Shown piece by piece: positions 3,872-58,455 of a DNA stretch of 64,000 bases. Location: the NCBI GenBank assembly GCA_021299465.1, contig JAJTHB010000005.1, positions 173,044 to 237,043 of the forward strand. The letters are read 5' to 3'. Origin of the DNA: Rickettsiales bacterium (lineage in GTDB: Bacteria; Pseudomonadota; Alphaproteobacteria; Rickettsiales; SXRF01). The translations under genes and the position numbers were made by a program. How positions within the stretch are numbered: the first letter of the stretch is position 1; each line of letters opens with the position of its first letter. Under the pieces are notes generated by a model, which was given only the letters and a program-made list of their open reading frames with translations, was not told the origin of the DNA and made no database searches.

Positions 3872-4210
3872 CTAGGCGTTCAGGCTGGTTTTTTCTAAGC
3901 GGCTGTTATCGTTGCTGGCGTAGAAGTCATGATCAAAGCCGTAATAATCTTTGATTTTGGTTTTGATCTGAGCCGTCGGCTCCCCATAGCCTTTTTCAAC
4001 AATCACCGCAAAATGCGGAATATCCCCTTTTTCAAGGCAGCTCATCATTTGCTCATGAAGCATCGCGCTGGCAATGGCATAGTAAAACATACGTTCCTTC
4101 TTCAGCTCGTCATAAGCCGGAATAAAATACACGTTAATCTTTTTTGCGGCCTCATATTTGGATTTATAATGAGGCAGGCTTTCCATCATGTCCTGATCGG
4201 GGTTGAGCAT
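3872..4210 (-). CDS. Hypothetical protein, conserved partner of two-gene module copy A
   Basis: Aligns by eye with 18750-18977 and 58126-58455; TGATG coupling to the upstream peptide. Confidence 0.75.
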   Translation of the reverse strand: MLNPDQDMMESLPHYKSKYEAAKKINVYFIPAYDELKKERMFYYAIASAMLHEQMMSCLEKGDIPHFAVIVEKGYGEPTAQIKTKIKDYYGFDHDFYASNDNSRLEKTSLNA

Positions 4211-4389
4211 CAGTCAACTCCTTTTCCAAGGTGATCAGGGCACTTGCTGGCAACCGTTCTTGCTACATGAGTGCCAAGACTTCCTTCACCACAAAGAACA
4301 CCTTTGGAGCCTATGGTGACGTGCTCTGGCTGCTGCCCCCCACGGTGGTTTCGTGTATTCATTCCGTCTACTAAATCACGAACACTCAT
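4210..4389 (-). CDS. 59-aa low-complexity peptide, module copy A
   Basis: AAGGGAG RBS upstream of ATG 4389; stop overlaps the next start; ends HLGKGVD. Confidence 0.6.
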   Translation of the reverse strand: MSVRDLVDGMNTRNHRGGQQPEHVTIGSKGVLCGEGSLGTHVARTVASKCPDHLGKGVD

Positions 4390-4492
4390 AACGTCTCCCT
4401 TCATTTCAATCTACTAGATCGGGAGACATTTTTCACGTTTACATCTGTGAATCTTTTGTGACAGATCGCAGACGAATTGATGACAGTCTAGT

Positions 4493-17173: not shown

Positions 17174-18460
17174 ATGTCGATTGAAGAGATTATTCCTTCG
17201 CTTAAACTATCTGACAGCAAATTGCTGGAACGTGCACAAACAAAAGCAGTTTATGCACTCGCAGATGCCTATGAAGCTGATTTAAAGGCGCTAATTGATA
17301 AGTTAGAAAAAAAGTACCATTTGAAAATCGGTAAGTTGATAGGGGTTGGCTCACTTGCGCTGGTTTTTGAAATAGAGCAGCCCGCCAAGGAAGGTGAAAA
17401 AGGCGTGGAGGTGTTCAAGAAGTCGGTTATTAGAATTCAGGGTAAAGAAAACACCGGTTTTGTTGATAACCCGCTTGCTATCCAGCCGCTACTTAACATC
17501 TCGAATGATGAGCTTGGAGAGGATAGCTACTACTCAGCTACTATCGTTCCGCGTGCTGAGATGGAGCGGGATGGTAAAGCAGCATCTCCTGATGAAATTC
17601 TACACACGATCGCTGCATTCAACGCGAAGAAGCAGTTTCCGCGTTTGTTTGATCTTTCCGAGGATCAGTTTGGGTTTATACCTGGTATTGCAACACCGGT
17701 ACTCATTGATATCAGCTCCATGTCTCATGATGATCCGGAGCAGCAGAAGAAAAAAATTGGATTTGGCGGTGTAGATAAGTTTATCGATACGCTTTCGGCT
17801 AAAACGGGCAAAAGCAAGGATGAGATCTTATCAAATAAGGAAGGCCTTGATCAGCTGGTGGCGCTGGAGATGGCGTCTCGCCGTCTGAATTCAGATGCGC
17901 TGCAAGAGTTTCGCGATGCCGATATCAATCTCGAAACACCGGCACAAAAACTCGCGCGGCAGCTTCTTGATACCCCCCTTCACTGGACTACCGAGGATAG
18001 TAACGGAAATGATGTTGATACTTATAACTTTAAGCAGTTTCTTGAGTATGTGACGACTGCCGATTATGCGGATGCTAATAAACCTGGAGGGATTATAGAT
18101 GTATCCAAAAAGGCGCAGCCCTCGCTGGTGGAGTACTATGAGTTAAAGAAGCATGCTGGCGATATCGTGGCGCTTCTGACACGAATTGAAAAAGGCCACA
18201 GCAACATCGGCCATGCTGAAAAAGAAACGCTGAAAAAGGGCTATCAGCTGGTGGCTTCGATTGCAGCCAACTACAACGATGTCAGACCCTTTGTGGAATC
18301 GATTGGTGCGGTAACTGAAAAACTGACAGGGAATGTCAATAAGTCAGCGGTTAATGACGCAGAAGAGGGCACGCTATTTAATTCGATAATGGTTCAATAT
18401 AGTCAGTTATTACAGGAGCTTCATATAGAAGTTCCCAAAGCTCGCCGTCTAGGCGGCTGA
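17174..18460 (+). CDS. Hypothetical protein with atypical protein-kinase-like N-terminal half
   Basis: KLIGVGSLALVFEI (Gly-loop-like), FDLSEDQFGF (catalytic-loop-like), PVLIDIS (DFG-like); helical C-terminal half. Confidence 0.5.
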   Translation: MSIEEIIPSLKLSDSKLLERAQTKAVYALADAYEADLKALIDKLEKKYHLKIGKLIGVGSLALVFEIEQPAKEGEKGVEVFKKSVIRIQGKENTGFVDNPLAIQPLLNISNDELGEDSYYSATIVPRAEMERDGKAASPDEILHTIAAFNAKKQFPRLFDLSEDQFGFIPGIATPVLIDISSMSHDDPEQQKKKIGFGGVDKFIDTLSAKTGKSKDEILSNKEGLDQLVALEMASRRLNSDALQEFRDADINLETPAQKLARQLLDTPLHWTTEDSNGNDVDTYNFKQFLEYVTTADYADANKPGGIIDVSKKAQPSLVEYYELKKHAGDIVALLTRIEKGHSNIGHAEKETLKKGYQLVASIAANYNDVRPFVESIGAVTEKLTGNVNKSAVNDAEEGTLFNSIMVQYSQLLQELHIEVPKARRLGG

Positions 18461-18504: not shown

Positions 18505-18747
18505 ATGGAAAACGATACACCCATATATAGTTTAATCCCGCCATCAGAGCTGAGTGGTTTGTCTGCTGAGACCGCGGCAAGAATCTCCGAAAATCCTATG
18601 CCAACATCACAAAGGGTTTCTAACTTAACACCGCTTGAACTGGTTGGTCAGGGACAGCTATCAGCTAAAGATGCTGGCAAAAGTGACCCAGTTAGCCAGC
18701 CAATGCCATCAACTGGAAAAGAACCTTCCGGAAAAGGCAGGGGCTAG
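18505..18747 (+). CDS. 80-aa Ser/Pro-rich peptide, module copy B
   Basis: Ends SGKGRG; 2 nt before the partner gene. Confidence 0.65.
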   Translation: MENDTPIYSLIPPSELSGLSAETAARISENPMPTSQRVSNLTPLELVGQGQLSAKDAGKSDPVSQPMPSTGKEPSGKGRG

Positions 18748-18749
18748 CC

Positions 18750-18977
18750 ATGTTTGCCCGCAAGCAGGACGAGCTGGTTTTTCTTTCTAAAGGTACGCAT
18801 GAAGGTCGCCATACGTGGCACTATCTTCTAGTTAAAAAAATGAAGCTGCCGCAGCTCATGGAAGCGGTTAAGCAGGGACAGGTTGACCTTGCCCAGTATG
18901 GGCGTATTTTATTTTCCGGCTTTGGCGCTAATCCGCCAGCGGATGTCACGTTGCTGGTTCGTCAGAAATTCGGCTGA
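18750..18977 (+). CDS. Hypothetical protein, conserved partner of module copy B
   Basis: WHYLLVK...QGQVDLAQYGRILFSGFGANPP...FG aligns with the copy A and C partners. Confidence 0.8.
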   Translation: MFARKQDELVFLSKGTHEGRHTWHYLLVKKMKLPQLMEAVKQGQVDLAQYGRILFSGFGANPPADVTLLVRQKFG

Positions 18978-18978
18978 A

Positions 18979-19287
18979 TCAACCCGGCAGCTTCAGGCGC
19001 TGCACATGCCTGCCGTGGGTCAGGTGCTCGTGGATAACCTCATCGACATCCTCTTTCGTTCTGCAAGCATACCATACCCCCTCGGGGTAGATCACCATGC
19101 ACGGGCCAAGTTCACAGCGATCAAGGCAGCCAGCACTATTCACGCGGGTTTTGCGGATGCCGGCTTCTTTAACTTTTGCTTTCATGTAGTCGCGTAGTTC
19201 GGCTGCGTTCTTATCAGCGCAGCAGCCACGCTTGTGACCGGGCTCGCGCTGGTTGGTGCAGCAGAAGATATGGCGCTCGAAAAACAT
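18979..19287 (-). CDS. Thioredoxin-like [2Fe-2S] ferredoxin
   Basis: HIFCCTNQR...GCC, AGCLDRCELGPCMVIYPEGVWY. Confidence 0.92.
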   Translation of the reverse strand: MFFERHIFCCTNQREPGHKRGCCADKNAAELRDYMKAKVKEAGIRKTRVNSAGCLDRCELGPCMVIYPEGVWYACRTKEDVDEVIHEHLTHGRHVQRLKLPG

Positions 19288-19288
19288 A

Positions 19289-19576
19289 TCAGAGGTTGTA
19301 GAGGTAGGTGTAAAGTGCATCCCGCACAAAGTGCAGCAGTAGGATAAGTATCACCGGAGAAATATCGATGCCACCCATGTCCGGCAGGTACTTGCGGATG
19401 GGGCGTAGCGCGGGGTCAACAAGGCGATTCAGTGCATACATGATCTTCTGCACCACAGGTTGGTAGGCATTCACAATTTTGAATGCAATCAAAAGTGACA
19501 GCACTGCCTGAACGATGACGCACAGCAGATAAAGCGAAATGAGACTGCCGATAAGATTCACGAAGGGATTGAGCAT
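19289..19576 (-). CDS. yggT: YggT family membrane protein
   Basis: LVDPALRPIRKYLPDMGGIDISPVIL. Confidence 0.92.
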   Translation of the reverse strand: MLNPFVNLIGSLISLYLLCVIVQAVLSLLIAFKIVNAYQPVVQKIMYALNRLVDPALRPIRKYLPDMGGIDISPVILILLLHFVRDALYTYLYNL

Positions 19577-20478: not shown

Positions 20479-21531
20479 GTGCGGGGTGTTGTGCATACTA
20501 AACACATTAAAGTTACCGATATCCCGGCGTCGGTGGAACAAAATGCCATATACGAATTCGTGCCTGTCCAGCCTGACGAGGCATTTTATAACGAACGAAC
20601 GGACAGGAATATTGGCTGGATAAGCCCTGAGGAGCAGCAGATACTGAAGCAATCGCGCATTGCGATTGCTGGGCTGGGCGGTATGGGTGGGGCTGCAGCT
20701 CCCTCGCTGCTCAGGATGGGGGTTGGCCAAATGAAGCTGGCTGACCTCGAGACGTTTGATGCCAGCAATATCAATCGCCAGTTTGGGGCGGGACGTTATG
20801 CCATTGGCCGATCCAAGGTTTTTGAAACCATCAGGCTACTTCGTCAGATAACGGATGATACAACATTGGTCGCATACCCACGCGGGGTAAATGAGCATGA
20901 GGTTGAGGGGTTTGTTGATGGCTGTGATCTGGTTTTGGACATGGTCGAGTTTTGGGCATTGTCTGCAAGAATTTTGCTGCATAAAACAGCACGCAGCAGG
21001 GGCTGTACAGTGGTCAGTGCAAACCCGGTAGGTATGGGAACAAGGCTGTTTTGGTTTGATGAGCGGGCATGCGATATTGAAACATTCCTCGGTGTCACTT
21101 ATGAAGAAGCGCTGGAGTTTGAAGAAAAAATGCGGCGCGGAACAGCGGGTAATAAAGAAAAGATGCGTATTATCGCTTCCGTAATGTCCAGCTTTGTGCC
21201 AGAGCTACCGTTTTATGCTGATAGTGAGCAGAAAGCGAGTAACCATAAAACACTTCGTGAGCGTATCATGAAGGATAACAAGCCCTCTGTGATAGGTTCA
21301 AATTTAGCGATGGCTGGCGGGTTTCTTGCAAATCACGTTGTGCTATATTTGCTCAGAAACTCAAACGTGAAGCGCCGTAAGCTGCCGCGTTACCCAAGCG
21401 CCCCAGGCTATATTTATTTTGATTCAGCATTTGTGAAGGCGGCAATCAGGCATAATGGCGTGCTTGTTAAATTGCTTCGTCTTTTATATCGCCTTGGTGT
21501 TAGGCTGGCGATGAGAAAAGTTCCTGATTAG
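20479..21531 (+). CDS. ThiF/E1-like adenylyltransferase family protein
   Basis: RNIGWISPEEQQILKQSRIAIAGLGGMGG, DLETFDASNINRQ. Confidence 0.85.
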   Translation: MRGVVHTKHIKVTDIPASVEQNAIYEFVPVQPDEAFYNERTDRNIGWISPEEQQILKQSRIAIAGLGGMGGAAAPSLLRMGVGQMKLADLETFDASNINRQFGAGRYAIGRSKVFETIRLLRQITDDTTLVAYPRGVNEHEVEGFVDGCDLVLDMVEFWALSARILLHKTARSRGCTVVSANPVGMGTRLFWFDERACDIETFLGVTYEEALEFEEKMRRGTAGNKEKMRIIASVMSSFVPELPFYADSEQKASNHKTLRERIMKDNKPSVIGSNLAMAGGFLANHVVLYLLRNSNVKRRKLPRYPSAPGYIYFDSAFVKAAIRHNGVLVKLLRLLYRLGVRLAMRKVPD

Positions 21532-57891: not shown

Positions 57892-58122
57892 ATGAAGGCT
57901 TTTTTTGGCTCCGATGGAGCATTGCAAGTGGTTGCTGTGAGTGGTGCAATCGAAGCAAATAGTCCAGCCGCCAATCTTGTTACAGAAGCCATTCAGCAAA
58001 CCAGCTCTCGAAATTTTTCCGATTTAAGTTCGGGTGATTTATCGTCGATTGTTACCCTTCCAGCAGCGTCATCCCATTTATCTTTACCAATGTCTCCCAA
58101 TCCTCAGGGGCGCGGGCGGTAG
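57892..58122 (+). CDS. 76-aa Ser/Pro-rich peptide, module copy C
   Basis: GGGGGA RBS before ATG 57892; ends PNPQGRGR; 3 nt before the partner gene. Confidence 0.65.
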   Translation: MKAFFGSDGALQVVAVSGAIEANSPAANLVTEAIQQTSSRNFSDLSSGDLSSIVTLPAASSHLSLPMSPNPQGRGR

Positions 58123-58125
58123 ATC

Positions 58126-58455
58126 ATGGTGAGTGTGCATTTATCTCCGCCTTCATCAAGTCGTCACATGGCGGACTTATTATGCACGATCATTGTTTTG
58201 TGCCAGGCGAGTGATGAGCGCGGCGATCCTTTTTGGAGTTACCTGTGCCTAAAGCCGAGCATGGCGCAGGCCTTTCGTGAGGCGCGTTTGAAAGGCTCAT
58301 GCAATCTCGACGATTTTGGCACCATCATTGAACATGGTAAAGGTAACGCAGTCCCACTTGATGTGAAGCTTCGTATGGAGCGTGATTTCGGTGTGAATCA
58401 TAGGCTGGAAGATGATCTTGCCAAGGCGATTGAAGCCAGAAAACAAATCCAATAA
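58126..58455 (+). CDS. Hypothetical protein, conserved partner of module copy C (alternative start 58168)
   Basis: FWSYLCLK...KGSCNLDDFGTIIEHGKG...DFG aligns with the copy A and B partners. Confidence 0.8.
   Translation: MVSVHLSPPSSSRHMADLLCTIIVLCQASDERGDPFWSYLCLKPSMAQAFREARLKGSCNLDDFGTIIEHGKGNAVPLDVKLRMERDFGVNHRLEDDLAKAIEARKQIQ

What the first reader, a model, noticed from the sequence alone, without database searches (positions are those of the whole stretch)
18505..18977. Module copy B: minimal partner protein (75 aa) defines the core domain
The partner ends right at the conserved FG, with none of the C-terminal helix seen in copies A and C, so it delimits the minimal fold. The peptide shares a PM-x-S/P and G[KR]GR end with copy C.
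Basis: partly seen in the sequence, partly recalled or inferred. Interest (0 to 1): 0.62.

Follow-up and report, generated by a model that had tools for sequence, protein, structure and literature searches.

The report
Minimal member of unnamed small-domain family
The 75-residue protein is the shortest natural form of a widespread but undescribed small protein domain that elsewhere sits on large bacterial immune-type proteins; here it follows a kinase-like gene and a fast-evolving 80-residue peptide gene, and its function is untested.

Summary

The partner belongs to an unnamed domain family ("X"). The family has 1,637 cluster representatives and no Pfam, NCBIfam, PHROGs or PADLOC model. Profiles built without this genome's copies still hit copies A, B and C.

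AlphaFold2 folds all 75 residues as a compact beta-beta-alpha-beta-alpha unit (pLDDT 91). Foldseek finds no significant match to solved structures.

B belongs to a distinct "type-1" clade that always ends 0-4 residues after FG; other members run a median of 22 residues further, and copy C is modelled with an extra helix there. The "minimal core" reading therefore holds, as a clade trait and not a truncation (dN/dS 0.06).

Elsewhere X is fused to STAND NTPases, CHAT, TIR, protein kinases, an Mrr-like nuclease and XRE HTH domains, and it occurs in tandem arrays. With no conserved polar residue, a non-catalytic binding or adaptor role is most likely.

The peptide looks like a real gene (dN/dS 0.28) but is not homologous to the peptide of copy C. 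Only a G[KR]G-type tail is shared. One relative has kinase-like gene plus X with no peptide gene. What X binds is unknown.

The parts
18750..18977 (+). 75-aa partner protein: minimal 'type-1' member of the unnamed X domain family (b1 7-15, b2 21-29, a1 30-42, b3 51-58, conserved SGxGxxPP loop, a2 64-74, stop right after FG). Basic, pI 9.9.
   Evidence: dN/dS 0.06 against the G003 orthologue
18505..18747 (+). 80-aa acidic (pI 4.9), Ser/Pro/Gly-rich peptide gene. Residues 1-50 are 80% identical and residues 51-80 are 60% identical to the only orthologue. Ends GKGRG.
   Evidence: (dN/dS 0.28, dS 0.61, no indels, substitutions mostly at third positions)
18730..18743 (+). Purine/G-rich stretch ggaaaaggcagggg, 7-20 nt before the partner ATG. 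It encodes the GKGRG tail of the peptide and is at the same time the likely Shine-Dalgarno region of the partner gene.
   Evidence: Inference only; the genome-wide control shows no general G.G bias in coupled genes.
17174..18460 (+). 428-aa fast-evolving kinase-like protein, co-oriented, 44 nt upstream. Homologues of 220-261 aa occupy the same ffh|fdx slot in four relatives.
   Evidence: The kinase assignment is only weakly supported (PLK4 N-lobe, E about 0.65).
58126..58455 (+). Paralogue C of the partner (109 aa), with an N-terminal helix and an extra C-terminal helix.
57892..58122 (+). Peptide gene of copy C (76 aa). It is in the same reading frame as partner C, separated only by TAG plus one codon.
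3872..4210 (-). Paralogue A of the partner (112 aa).
4210..4404 (-). Small ORF in front of copy A (64 aa, ends LGKGVD, overlaps the partner start by ATGA).

Best explanation
The 75-aa protein is a functional, minimal stand-alone member of an undescribed small alpha/beta domain family, here called X. It most likely acts as a non-catalytic binding or adaptor module.

Shown:
- It belongs to the family.
- It is modelled as a complete beta-beta-alpha-beta-alpha fold.
- It is under strong purifying selection.
- Its ending at FG is the rule in its 'type-1' clade.
- X is fused elsewhere to STAND NTPases, CHAT, TIR, protein kinases, an Mrr-like nuclease and XRE HTH domains, and it forms tandem type-1/type-2 pairs.

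Inferred:
- X pairs with another X domain, or binds a short segment of a partner protein.
- In this locus the clients are the product of the kinase-like gene just upstream, the 80-aa acidic peptide, or both.
- The peptide is a real, mostly disordered small protein, translationally coupled to the partner, and possibly derived from a copy of the kinase-like protein's C-terminal tail.

The three genes form an accessory cassette in a variable slot between ffh and a ferredoxin-like gene.

The confidence given (0.5) is for the whole statement including the inferred binding/adaptor role; family membership, fold limits and the clade-level short form alone I hold at about 0.9.
For: Family membership:
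- A profile of the five paralogues finds 1,637 cluster representatives at E <= 1e-3 and 339 at E <= 1e-10.
- An HMM built without this genome's copies hits B at 1.4e-15.
- 36 of 41 related genomes carry 1-23 copies, against 8 of 201 genomes sampled across the class.

Fold:
- pLDDT 91.2, pTM 0.77.

Selection:
- dN/dS is 0.06 for the partner and 0.28 for the peptide at dS about 0.6, with identical lengths and stops.

Type-1 clade:
- 16 tips with support 0.84. Members that end a protein stop 0-4 aa after FG, against a median of 22 aa in the others.

Non-enzymatic:
- The near-invariant positions are Y, F and four G only.

Fusions:
- CHAT-AAA-TPR-X, DUF4062-AAA-TPR-X, NACHT-HEAT-X, CHAT-NACHT-X, Pkinase-TPR-DUF2610-X-X.
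- ZZ-Pkinase-TPR-X(type 1)-TPR-X, TIR-Pkinase-DUF2610-X, TIR-Pkinase-TPR-X, X-NB-ARC.
- From my own reading of the sequences, without a Pfam scan: TIR-X, X-Mrr-like nuclease, many HTH-X proteins, and tandem type-1/type-2 proteins.

Locus:
- The kinase-like gene occupies the same ffh|fdx slot in G002, G003, G004 and MAG SW_32. In SW_32 it is followed directly by a type-1 X of 85 aa.
- Charges are complementary: partner pI 9.9, peptide pI 4.9.
- In the single-chain model of peptide C plus partner C, the peptide's N-terminal strand and helix reach pLDDT about 77 and the whole chain has pTM 0.69.
- The tail of the SW_32 kinase-like protein aligns with peptide residues 20-43: score 37 against 25.5 +/- 4.8 for shuffles, p about 0.025.
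Against: - No experiment bears on the function, and no co-fold of B with its own peptide was possible because the two ORFs are in different frames and the tool folds single chains only.
- Coordinates and PAE of the copy C fusion model were not available, so docking of that peptide onto the domain is inferred only from DSSP strand calls, pLDDT and pTM.
- The kinase-like assignment is weak: no Pfam hit, and the best PDB profile hits are at E about 0.65.
- Genes upstream of type-1 X in other genomes are unrelated to one another, so no single client family exists.
- G002 and G004 keep the kinase-like gene without X.
- The peptide-to-tail similarity is marginal.
- One STAND locus examined has no second X copy nearby, so homotypic coupling within an operon is not shown.
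Confidence: 0.5

Rival explanations
1. X is a small-ligand sensor, for example of a nucleotide-derived signal, and not a protein-protein adaptor. The conserved Gly-rich SGxGxxPP loop at the N-terminus of helix 2 would form an anion or phosphate-binding site. Dimers or tandem pairs would create the pocket, and ligand binding would switch the fused or neighbouring effector (TIR, nuclease, CHAT, kinase, HTH).
For: - The architectures TIR-X, X-nuclease, HTH-X and CHAT-...-X resemble sensor-effector proteins of signalling-based defence systems.
- The most conserved exposed element is a G-x-G loop preceding a helix.
- Tandem type-1/type-2 pairs exist.
Against: - No signal-generating enzyme was seen next to the copies examined.
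- There are no PADLOC or Pfam sensor-family hits.
- The domain is very small, and no conserved basic or polar residue lines the loop.
- In STAND proteins X follows the TPR or HEAT arrays, a position equally typical of protein-binding modules.
Confidence: 0.15
2. Peptide and partner form a type II toxin-antitoxin-like pair: an acidic, disordered antitoxin encoded upstream and a basic 75-aa toxin downstream.
For: The two genes are small and tightly coupled (2-nt gap). Charges are complementary: pI 4.9 and 9.9. The cassette is accessory and patchily distributed.
Against: - No toxin or antitoxin family is hit in Pfam, NCBIfam or PADLOC.
- X has no conserved catalytic residue and occurs in tandem arrays and as a terminal module of large proteins.
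- Paralogues D and E, and the SW_32 orthologous locus, have no peptide gene.
- The other X paralogues are acidic.
- The peptide has no DNA-binding domain.
Confidence: 0.07
3. The ORF at 18505-18747 is not a functional gene. It would be a decaying remnant (a former N-terminal extension or duplicated tail) or a leader region whose only role is to carry the ribosome-binding site of the partner. The shared G[KR]G tail would simply be a G-rich Shine-Dalgarno sequence read in frame.
For: - Homologues occur in only one other genome.
- Constraint is much weaker than on the partner, 0.28 against 0.06. The copy C peptide has dN/dS 0.65 between its closest orthologues.
- There is no obvious SD before 18505.
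- The tails of A, B and C overlap purine/G-rich stretches at SD distance.
- The SW_32 locus lacks the ORF.
- Single-chain proteins with an N-terminal extension plus X exist, such as the Wolbachia 156-aa protein and many 160-250-aa representatives.
Against: - The frame, length and stop are kept at dS 0.61, and substitutions are concentrated at third positions (10, 16 and 27 at positions 1, 2 and 3).
- The analogous copy C peptide ORFs stay open in four genomes of the genus (a fifth, G004, has a 95-aa open frame there) at saturating divergence, and the three orthologues in G001-G003 have strong SDs of their own.
- Genome-wide, coupled genes show no G.G tail bias (1.4% against 2.6%).
Confidence: 0.2
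4. B is a recently truncated, decaying copy (a pseudogene) of a longer X protein that has lost its C-terminal helix.
For: It is the shortest copy in the genome. Its stop lies 1 nt from the convergent stop of the ferredoxin-like gene.
Against: - dN/dS is 0.06, with the same stop in an orthologue at dS 0.67.
- The closest relatives in other families, in Wolbachia and in multidomain proteins end at the same point.
- The whole 75 aa is modelled as a confident complete fold.
Confidence: 0.03

Closest known systems
KTSC domain (Pfam PF13619; uncharacterised structure PDB 4rgi)
   Same: A small domain of roughly 60-75 residues with a beta-hairpin carrying a conserved aromatic 'Y.Y..V' followed by a helix ('F..A..kG.F'). 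22 of 82 X members give weak hits to PF13619 over exactly this strand-2 plus helix-1 segment. The X profile touches 4rgi over the same segment at E = 1.
   Different: No member reaches the Pfam gathering score (best E 5.6e-4, about 15 bits against a cut-off of 25). Copy B gives no hit at all. The similarity covers about 27 residues only. X has a third strand, a conserved SGxGxxPP loop and a second helix that were not aligned to KTSC. Foldseek did not list any KTSC-type structure among its top 50 matches.
Effector-associated domains (EADs) of NTP-dependent bacterial conflict systems (Kaur, Burroughs, Iyer, Aravind 2020, PMC7159879; 2021, PMC8195603)
   Same: X is a small domain without enzymatic features. 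It is found both on STAND-type core proteins and on effector-type domains (TIR, nuclease, CHAT, kinase), and as stand-alone lineage-specific paralogues. This is the 'coupling adaptor' logic described for EADs (for the definition; for the architectures).
   Different: X matches none of the Pfam models. It sits at the C-terminus after TPR or HEAT arrays. No paired second copy was seen in the one operon inspected. The stand-alone copies studied here are in small-genome Rickettsiales-like bacteria next to housekeeping or orphan genes, not in conflict-system operons.
Rosetta-stone fusion/fission pairs (domain-fusion logic)
   Same: Type-1 X is fused to protein kinases in some organisms (P0133) and is encoded directly behind a kinase-like gene here and in MAG SW_32.
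   Different: The fused kinases are canonical Pkinase domains. The neighbour here is an unclassified kinase-like protein with Arg in place of the beta3 Lys, so the link is suggestive only.

Membership tests
Unnamed X domain family (this scan) | Significant match to a family profile built without the query genome's own copies | tested here: met
   B 1.4e-15, A 8.5e-13, C 4.4e-30 at Z = 1e6. jackhmmer seeded from B recovers A, C, D, E and F.
Unnamed X domain family (this scan) | Conserved core: aromatic in strand 2, F in helix 1, and G...G.....G.G..PP around strand 3 | tested here: met
   B carries all six near-invariant positions (Y25, F36, G43, G51, G57, G59).
Type-1 subclade of X | W[HY]Y in strand 2, SG[FWY]G..PP loop, and a chain or domain end 0-4 residues after [FY]G | tested here: met
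   The clade has 16 tips with support 0.84. Chain ends are 0, 2, 3, 3 and 4 residues after FG, against a median of 22 in 147 others.
KTSC (PF13619) | Score at or above the Pfam gathering threshold (25 bits) | tested here: not met
   B has no hit at E <= 5. 22 of 82 relatives give sub-threshold hits (best E 5.6e-4; 14.7 bits for copy D).
KTSC (PF13619) | Fold match to a solved KTSC-type structure | tested here: inconclusive
   Foldseek against the PDB gives no match with E <= 1e-3 and no KTSC-type entry in the top 50. The sequence profile touches 4rgi at E = 1 over 26 residues. That 4rgi is KTSC-type is my assumption.
Effector-associated domains (EAD1-11) | Small, non-enzymatic, and fused both to core NTPases and to effector domains | tested here: met
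   No conserved polar residue. Fusions to CHAT, NACHT, AAA, NB-ARC, TIR, an Mrr-like nuclease and Pkinase.
Effector-associated domains (EAD1-11) | A second copy encoded by an adjacent gene of the same system, and a sequence match to a described EAD family | tested here: not met
   No second X in three loci around the DUF4062-AAA-TPR-X protein. No EAD model appears among the Pfam hits.
Type II toxin-antitoxin pair | Recognisable toxin fold or family, and an antitoxin with a DNA-binding domain | tested here: not met
   No hits in Pfam, NCBIfam or PADLOC for either ORF.
Protein kinase-like superfamily (upstream 428-aa gene) | Gly-rich loop, beta3 Lys, catalytic loop and DFG, with a significant profile match | tested here: inconclusive
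   A conserved G.G..A.V plus V[IL]RI (Arg, not Lys) is seen in the four-sequence alignment. The only PDB profile hits of that kind are PLK4 N-lobes at E about 0.65. No Pfam hit.

The most novel reading that the evidence does not exclude
X is a new class of peptide-binding or homotypic adaptor domain with a fold not yet represented in the PDB. It would be shared by bacterial STAND/TIR/CHAT/kinase immune-type proteins, an animal ankyrin protein (Lingula) and the small proteomes of Rickettsiales-like endosymbionts, including two Wolbachia. In the endosymbiont lineage each stand-alone copy would be dedicated to one neighbouring gene product. It would capture a short strand-helix segment, or the G[KR]G-ended tail, of that product or of a split-off small peptide by beta-sheet augmentation. 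It would so regulate or chaperone clients as different as a kinase-like protein and ValRS.
Probability: 0.2. Interest if true: 0.75.

Novelty: new variant of a known kind. Interest (0 to 1): 0.5.

Why it matters
If the reading is right, a 75-residue protein gives the cleanest experimental handle on a domain family that has no name, no structure and no known function. It is small enough for NMR, crystallography or binding screens.

The family appears in more than 1,600 protein clusters. These include NLR-like (STAND), TIR, caspase-like (CHAT) and kinase proteins of bacterial immunity-type systems.

Knowing what X binds would help explain how those large proteins sense or couple to partners. It would also help explain why one lineage of small-genome intracellular-type alphaproteobacteria keeps up to 23 stand-alone copies per genome.

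For genome annotation, the result turns several 'hypothetical proteins', including single-copy genes in two Wolbachia genomes, into members of a defined family with known domain limits.

Tried and rejected
Searches that found nothing:
- Pfam, NCBIfam, PHROGs and PADLOC scans of the two ORFs and of 82 family members gave no family hit. Only sub-threshold KTSC matches appeared.
- Foldseek of both models against the PDB and BFVD gave nothing at E <= 1e-3.
- The word-indexed protein search with B alone found only B itself.

Ideas tested and not supported:
- Homology of the peptides: BLAST and hhalign were negative.
- The shared G[KR]G tail as a generic by-product of a Shine-Dalgarno sequence inside coupled genes: the genome-wide control shows no such bias. 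The local overlap with a G-rich stretch remains.
- A link to the nearby ThiF/E1-like gene (20479-21531), with the Gly-ended peptide as an adenylation substrate: rejected, because G001 keeps ThiF but lacks the whole cassette.
- Programmed -1 frameshift fusing peptide and partner: I saw no canonical X XXY YYZ heptamer in the 18696-18747 overlap (inspection).
- A conserved client gene upstream of type-1 X in other genomes: the upstream genes are unrelated (weak DHHA1-like and SpoIIE/PP2C-like hits; the rest are orphans) and have no homologue in this genome.
- A lone PqqD hit among the 82 members could not be located in the ten longest members, so I dropped it.

Tools that could not be used as planned:
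- Promoter and terminator scans were at chance level.
A three-sequence alignment worked.

Full report
**1. What is there**

The window is G000:C36:173044-237043, from a 1.95-Mb assembly of an uncultured alphaproteobacterium. Public records that carry orthologues are titled "MAG: Rickettsiales bacterium" or "Alphaproteobacteria bacterium".

At the given coordinates there are two co-oriented ORFs:
- 18505-18747: 80 aa, ending ...PMPSTGKEPSGKGRG.
- 18750-18977: 75 aa, ending ...VRQKFG.

They are separated by TAG-CC-ATG. The stop of the second ORF lies 1 nt from the convergent stop of a ferredoxin-like gene (18979-19329, minus strand). A 428-aa gene (17174-18460) lies 44 nt upstream on the same strand.

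**2. The partner is a true member of a real family**

- B matches copy C (58126-58455) at tblastn E 5.6e-6 and copy A (3872-4210, minus strand) at BLASTP E 6e-5.
- The genome holds three further clear copies:
  - D, in a phage or GTA-like head-gene cluster.
  - E, behind aconitase.
  - F, on contig 4.
  - There is also one weak hit.
- A profile of five paralogues finds 1,637 representatives of 50%-identity clusters at E <= 1e-3, and 339 at E <= 1e-10.
- An HMM built only from foreign members hits A, B and C at 8.5e-13, 1.4e-15 and 4.4e-30. jackhmmer seeded with B alone recovers all the paralogues.
- No Pfam, NCBIfam, PHROGs or PADLOC model covers the domain.
- All named database members are "hypothetical protein".
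- 36 of 41 genomes of the same order carry 1-23 copies. Only 8 of 201 genomes sampled across the class carry any. This is a lineage-specific expansion of a sporadically distributed domain.

**3. Fold and limits**

With an 82-sequence alignment, AlphaFold2 models all 75 residues at pLDDT 91.2 and pTM 0.77. The elements are strand 7-15, strand 21-29, helix 30-42, strand 51-58 and helix 64-74. Foldseek finds no match at E <= 1e-3 in the PDB or in BFVD; the best TM-scores are about 0.4.

The near-invariant positions are one Tyr, one Phe and four Gly, including the loop SGxGxxPP between strand 3 and helix 2. No conserved polar residue suggests catalysis.

Copy C was folded as a read-through fusion with its peptide (see section 6). 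It shows the same core plus a short N-terminal helix and an extra C-terminal helix (fusion residues 172-186, pLDDT about 85). B lacks both.

**4. "Minimal" is a clade trait, not an accident**

In a tree of 174 domain instances, B falls in a clade of 16 with support 0.84. I call this clade type 1. Its features are:
- W[HY]Y in strand 2.
- SG[FWY]G..PP in the loop.
- Often an SF..K motif before strand 1.

Type-1 domains that end a protein stop 0, 2, 3, 3 or 4 residues after [FY]G. In 147 other last-domain instances the median is 22 residues and the 10th percentile is 11; only one has 5 or fewer.

The same end is seen in several relatives:
- The G003 orthologue (FG*).
- The closest homologues in other families (FGCA*, YGTA*, YGFEE*).
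- Two Wolbachia genomes (FGL*).

Type-1 domains also form the N-terminal half of tandem two-domain proteins, followed after 4-17 residues by a second domain from outside the type-1 clade.

Between G000 and G003 the partner has dN/dS 0.06 at dS 0.67. A recent truncation is therefore excluded.

**5. What the domain is attached to elsewhere**

Pfam scans of large representatives give these architectures:
- CHAT-AAA-TPR-X, DUF4062-AAA-TPR-X, NACHT-HEAT-X, CHAT-NACHT-X, Pkinase-TPR-DUF2610-X-X, HTH_XRE-X-X, TPR-X and ankyrin-X-ankyrin-X.
- ZZ-Pkinase-TPR-X-TPR-X with type-1 domains, TIR-Pkinase-DUF2610-X, TIR-Pkinase-TPR-X-TPR and X-NB-ARC.

Reading the mid-sized representatives by eye, I also see a TIR-X protein, an X-Mrr-like nuclease protein and about a dozen HTH-linker-X proteins. 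These last assignments are my own reading of the sequences, not Pfam results. One 530-aa protein has five tandem copies.

The ankyrin protein is XP_023933241.1 of the brachiopod Lingula anatina.

This pattern fits the "effector-associated domain" logic described for bacterial conflict systems: small non-enzymatic domains on both core NTPases and effectors (PMC7159879, section on EADs). X matches none of the described families. It sits C-terminal to the repeat arrays. One STAND locus I inspected has no second copy nearby.

A ligand-sensor role is a rival I cannot exclude. It would rest on the Gly-rich loop at a helix N-terminus and on the sensor-effector-like architectures.

**6. The peptide**

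An orthologue exists in only one other genome, G003 (public record CANHDY010000093.1). It is 73% identical, has the same length and stop, and has no indels. dN/dS is 0.28, and differences number 10, 16 and 27 at codon positions 1, 2 and 3. This pattern indicates a coding sequence under moderate constraint. Residues 1-50 are 80% identical and residues 51-80 are 60% identical.

The peptide is acidic (pI 4.9) and 62% Ser, Pro, Gly, Thr, Ala, Gln or Glu. The partner is basic (pI 9.9).

It shows no detectable homology to the peptides of copies A or C (hhalign probability 0.4%). 'PM' is not conserved in the orthologue. What recurs is a tail of the form [LQ]P-x(4-8)-G-[KR/x]-G-x(0-3):
- B: GKGRG*
- B in G003: VKGRG*
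- C: GRGR*
- C orthologues: GKGNSR*, GTGRAR*, GTGWAR*
- A: GKGVD*

Genome-wide, G[KR]G in the last six residues occurs in about 0.5% of long ORFs. It is not enriched in genes coupled to a downstream gene. The recurrence is therefore unlikely to be chance or a generic effect. Locally, though, the tail codons coincide with a purine/G-rich stretch at Shine-Dalgarno distance from the partner start (ggaaaaggcagggg, 18730-18743). I cannot separate a protein-level motif from an RNA-level one.

The copy C peptide helps as an analogue:
- Its ORF is kept open in G000-G003, and G004 has a 95-aa open frame at the same place, at saturating divergence.
- The ORFs in G001-G003 have strong SDs of their own.
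- In the genus the ORF is in the same frame as the partner, separated by one or two stop codons.
- Folding the TAG-read-through chain gives pTM 0.69. It predicts a strand (12-18) and a helix (25-37) in the peptide at pLDDT about 77, while the G[KR]G tail region is disordered.
- A DSSP strand needs a pairing partner, so I infer that this segment is modelled against the X sheet. I could not see the coordinates or the PAE.

**7. The locus**

The ffh|fdx junction is a variable slot:

| Genome | Content of the slot |
|---|---|
| G001 | empty (10 bp) |
| G004 | 261-aa homologue of the upstream gene |
| G002 | 225-aa homologue plus a 342-aa gene I read as sigma-factor-like (not scanned) |
| G003 | 220-aa homologue, peptide, partner |
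| G000 | 428-aa homologue, peptide, partner |
| MAG SW_32 (JAGVKI010000284.1) | 254-aa homologue followed after 7 nt by an 85-aa type-1 X, with no peptide gene |

The upstream family evolves fast: 25-36% identity within and between genera. It has a conserved G.G..A.V stretch followed by V[IL]RI. Support for a kinase fold is limited to PLK4 N-lobe hits at E about 0.65.

The tail of the SW_32 protein (AELAEKGINIEAVPSKQTVQNLEP) aligns with peptide residues 20-43 (AETAARISENPMPTSQRVSNLTP). The score is 37 against 25.5 +/- 4.8 for shuffles, p about 0.025. The peptide may therefore derive from a copied tail of the neighbouring gene, as an earlier agent of this scan proposed for other copies. The evidence is marginal.

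Type-1 X genes in other genomes lie directly behind unrelated, mostly orphan genes. In two Wolbachia genomes a single 156-aa protein joins an 85-aa basic extension to a type-1 X, next to a gene I read as miaA.

**8. Comparison with known families**

KTSC (PF13619) is the nearest named family. 22 of 82 members give sub-threshold hits confined to strand 2 plus helix 1. B itself gives none, and no fold match was retrieved. I therefore do not file X under KTSC; a distant relationship stays possible. X behaves like an EAD but fails two of the EAD criteria I could test.

**9. Verdict**

- The "minimal core domain" interpretation is supported and generalised to a subfamily.
- The "peptide plus partner module" interpretation is not supported as a repeated homologous unit. 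A functional pairing of the peptide, or of the upstream protein's tail, with X remains the most economical hypothesis and is directly testable.

Noticed in passing
window 57892-58455: The peptide and partner of copy C are in the same reading frame, separated only by TAG plus one codon. The same in-frame arrangement, with one or two stops, holds in three other genomes of the genus. This looks like a split of a single longer ORF, or a site of stop-codon read-through.
   Followed up: partly
G000:C16:44243-44482 (locus L060:1501-1785): The genome also encodes a stand-alone DUF2610 (PF11020) protein of 94 aa, overlapping by ATGA a downstream gene of at least 485 aa. In other organisms DUF2610 sits directly in front of X in large kinase proteins (P0014, P0062).
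   Followed up: partly
protein P0023 (XP_023933241.1, Lingula anatina): An animal protein annotated as an ankyrin-repeat subunit carries two type-1 X domains between ankyrin arrays. These are the closest relatives of copy B outside bacteria apart from P0066.
   Followed up: no
L068:2752-3222 and L069 (Wolbachia of Dipetalonema caudispina NZ_CP046580.1 and of Cruorifilaria tuberocauda NZ_CP046579.1): A single-copy 156-aa protein joins an 85-aa basic Ser/Lys/Arg-rich extension to a type-1 X domain ending FGL*. It lies next to a gene I read as miaA. It is the only X copy in each 0.86-Mb genome.
   Followed up: partly
L054:5443-6471 (G002): In G002 the ffh|fdx slot holds, besides the kinase-like gene, a 342-aa protein whose C-terminus reads like a sigma-70 region 4 HTH. 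I did not scan it. The slot is a hot spot for accessory genes.
   Followed up: no
window 18975-18981: The stop codons of the partner (TGA 18975-18977) and of the convergent ferredoxin-like gene (18979-18981) are 1 nt apart; in G003 they abut. There is no room for separate terminators.
   Followed up: no
G000:C4:108241-108786 and G000:C36:145188-145487 (outside the window): A sixth clear X paralogue (about 118 aa, with 'ILGRGS' near its N-terminus) and a seventh weak match (E 0.0016).
   Followed up: partly
related genomes, for example G008:C35:4516-7553, G015:C3:215577-218396, G007:C4:100118-103444: In several genera a short X copy lies 2-3 kb from, and on the opposite strand to, a higher-scoring long X hit that I take to be the D-type copy of the GTA/phage-like head cluster. 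In G008 the short copy is preceded by a roughly 200-aa orphan gene. G000 lacks this arrangement.
   Followed up: partly
window 18730-18736 and 18709-18715: The heptamer GGAAAAG occurs twice, 21 nt apart start to start, near the end of the peptide ORF. The same GGAAAAGG occurs at the end of the small ORF in front of copy A.
   Followed up: no
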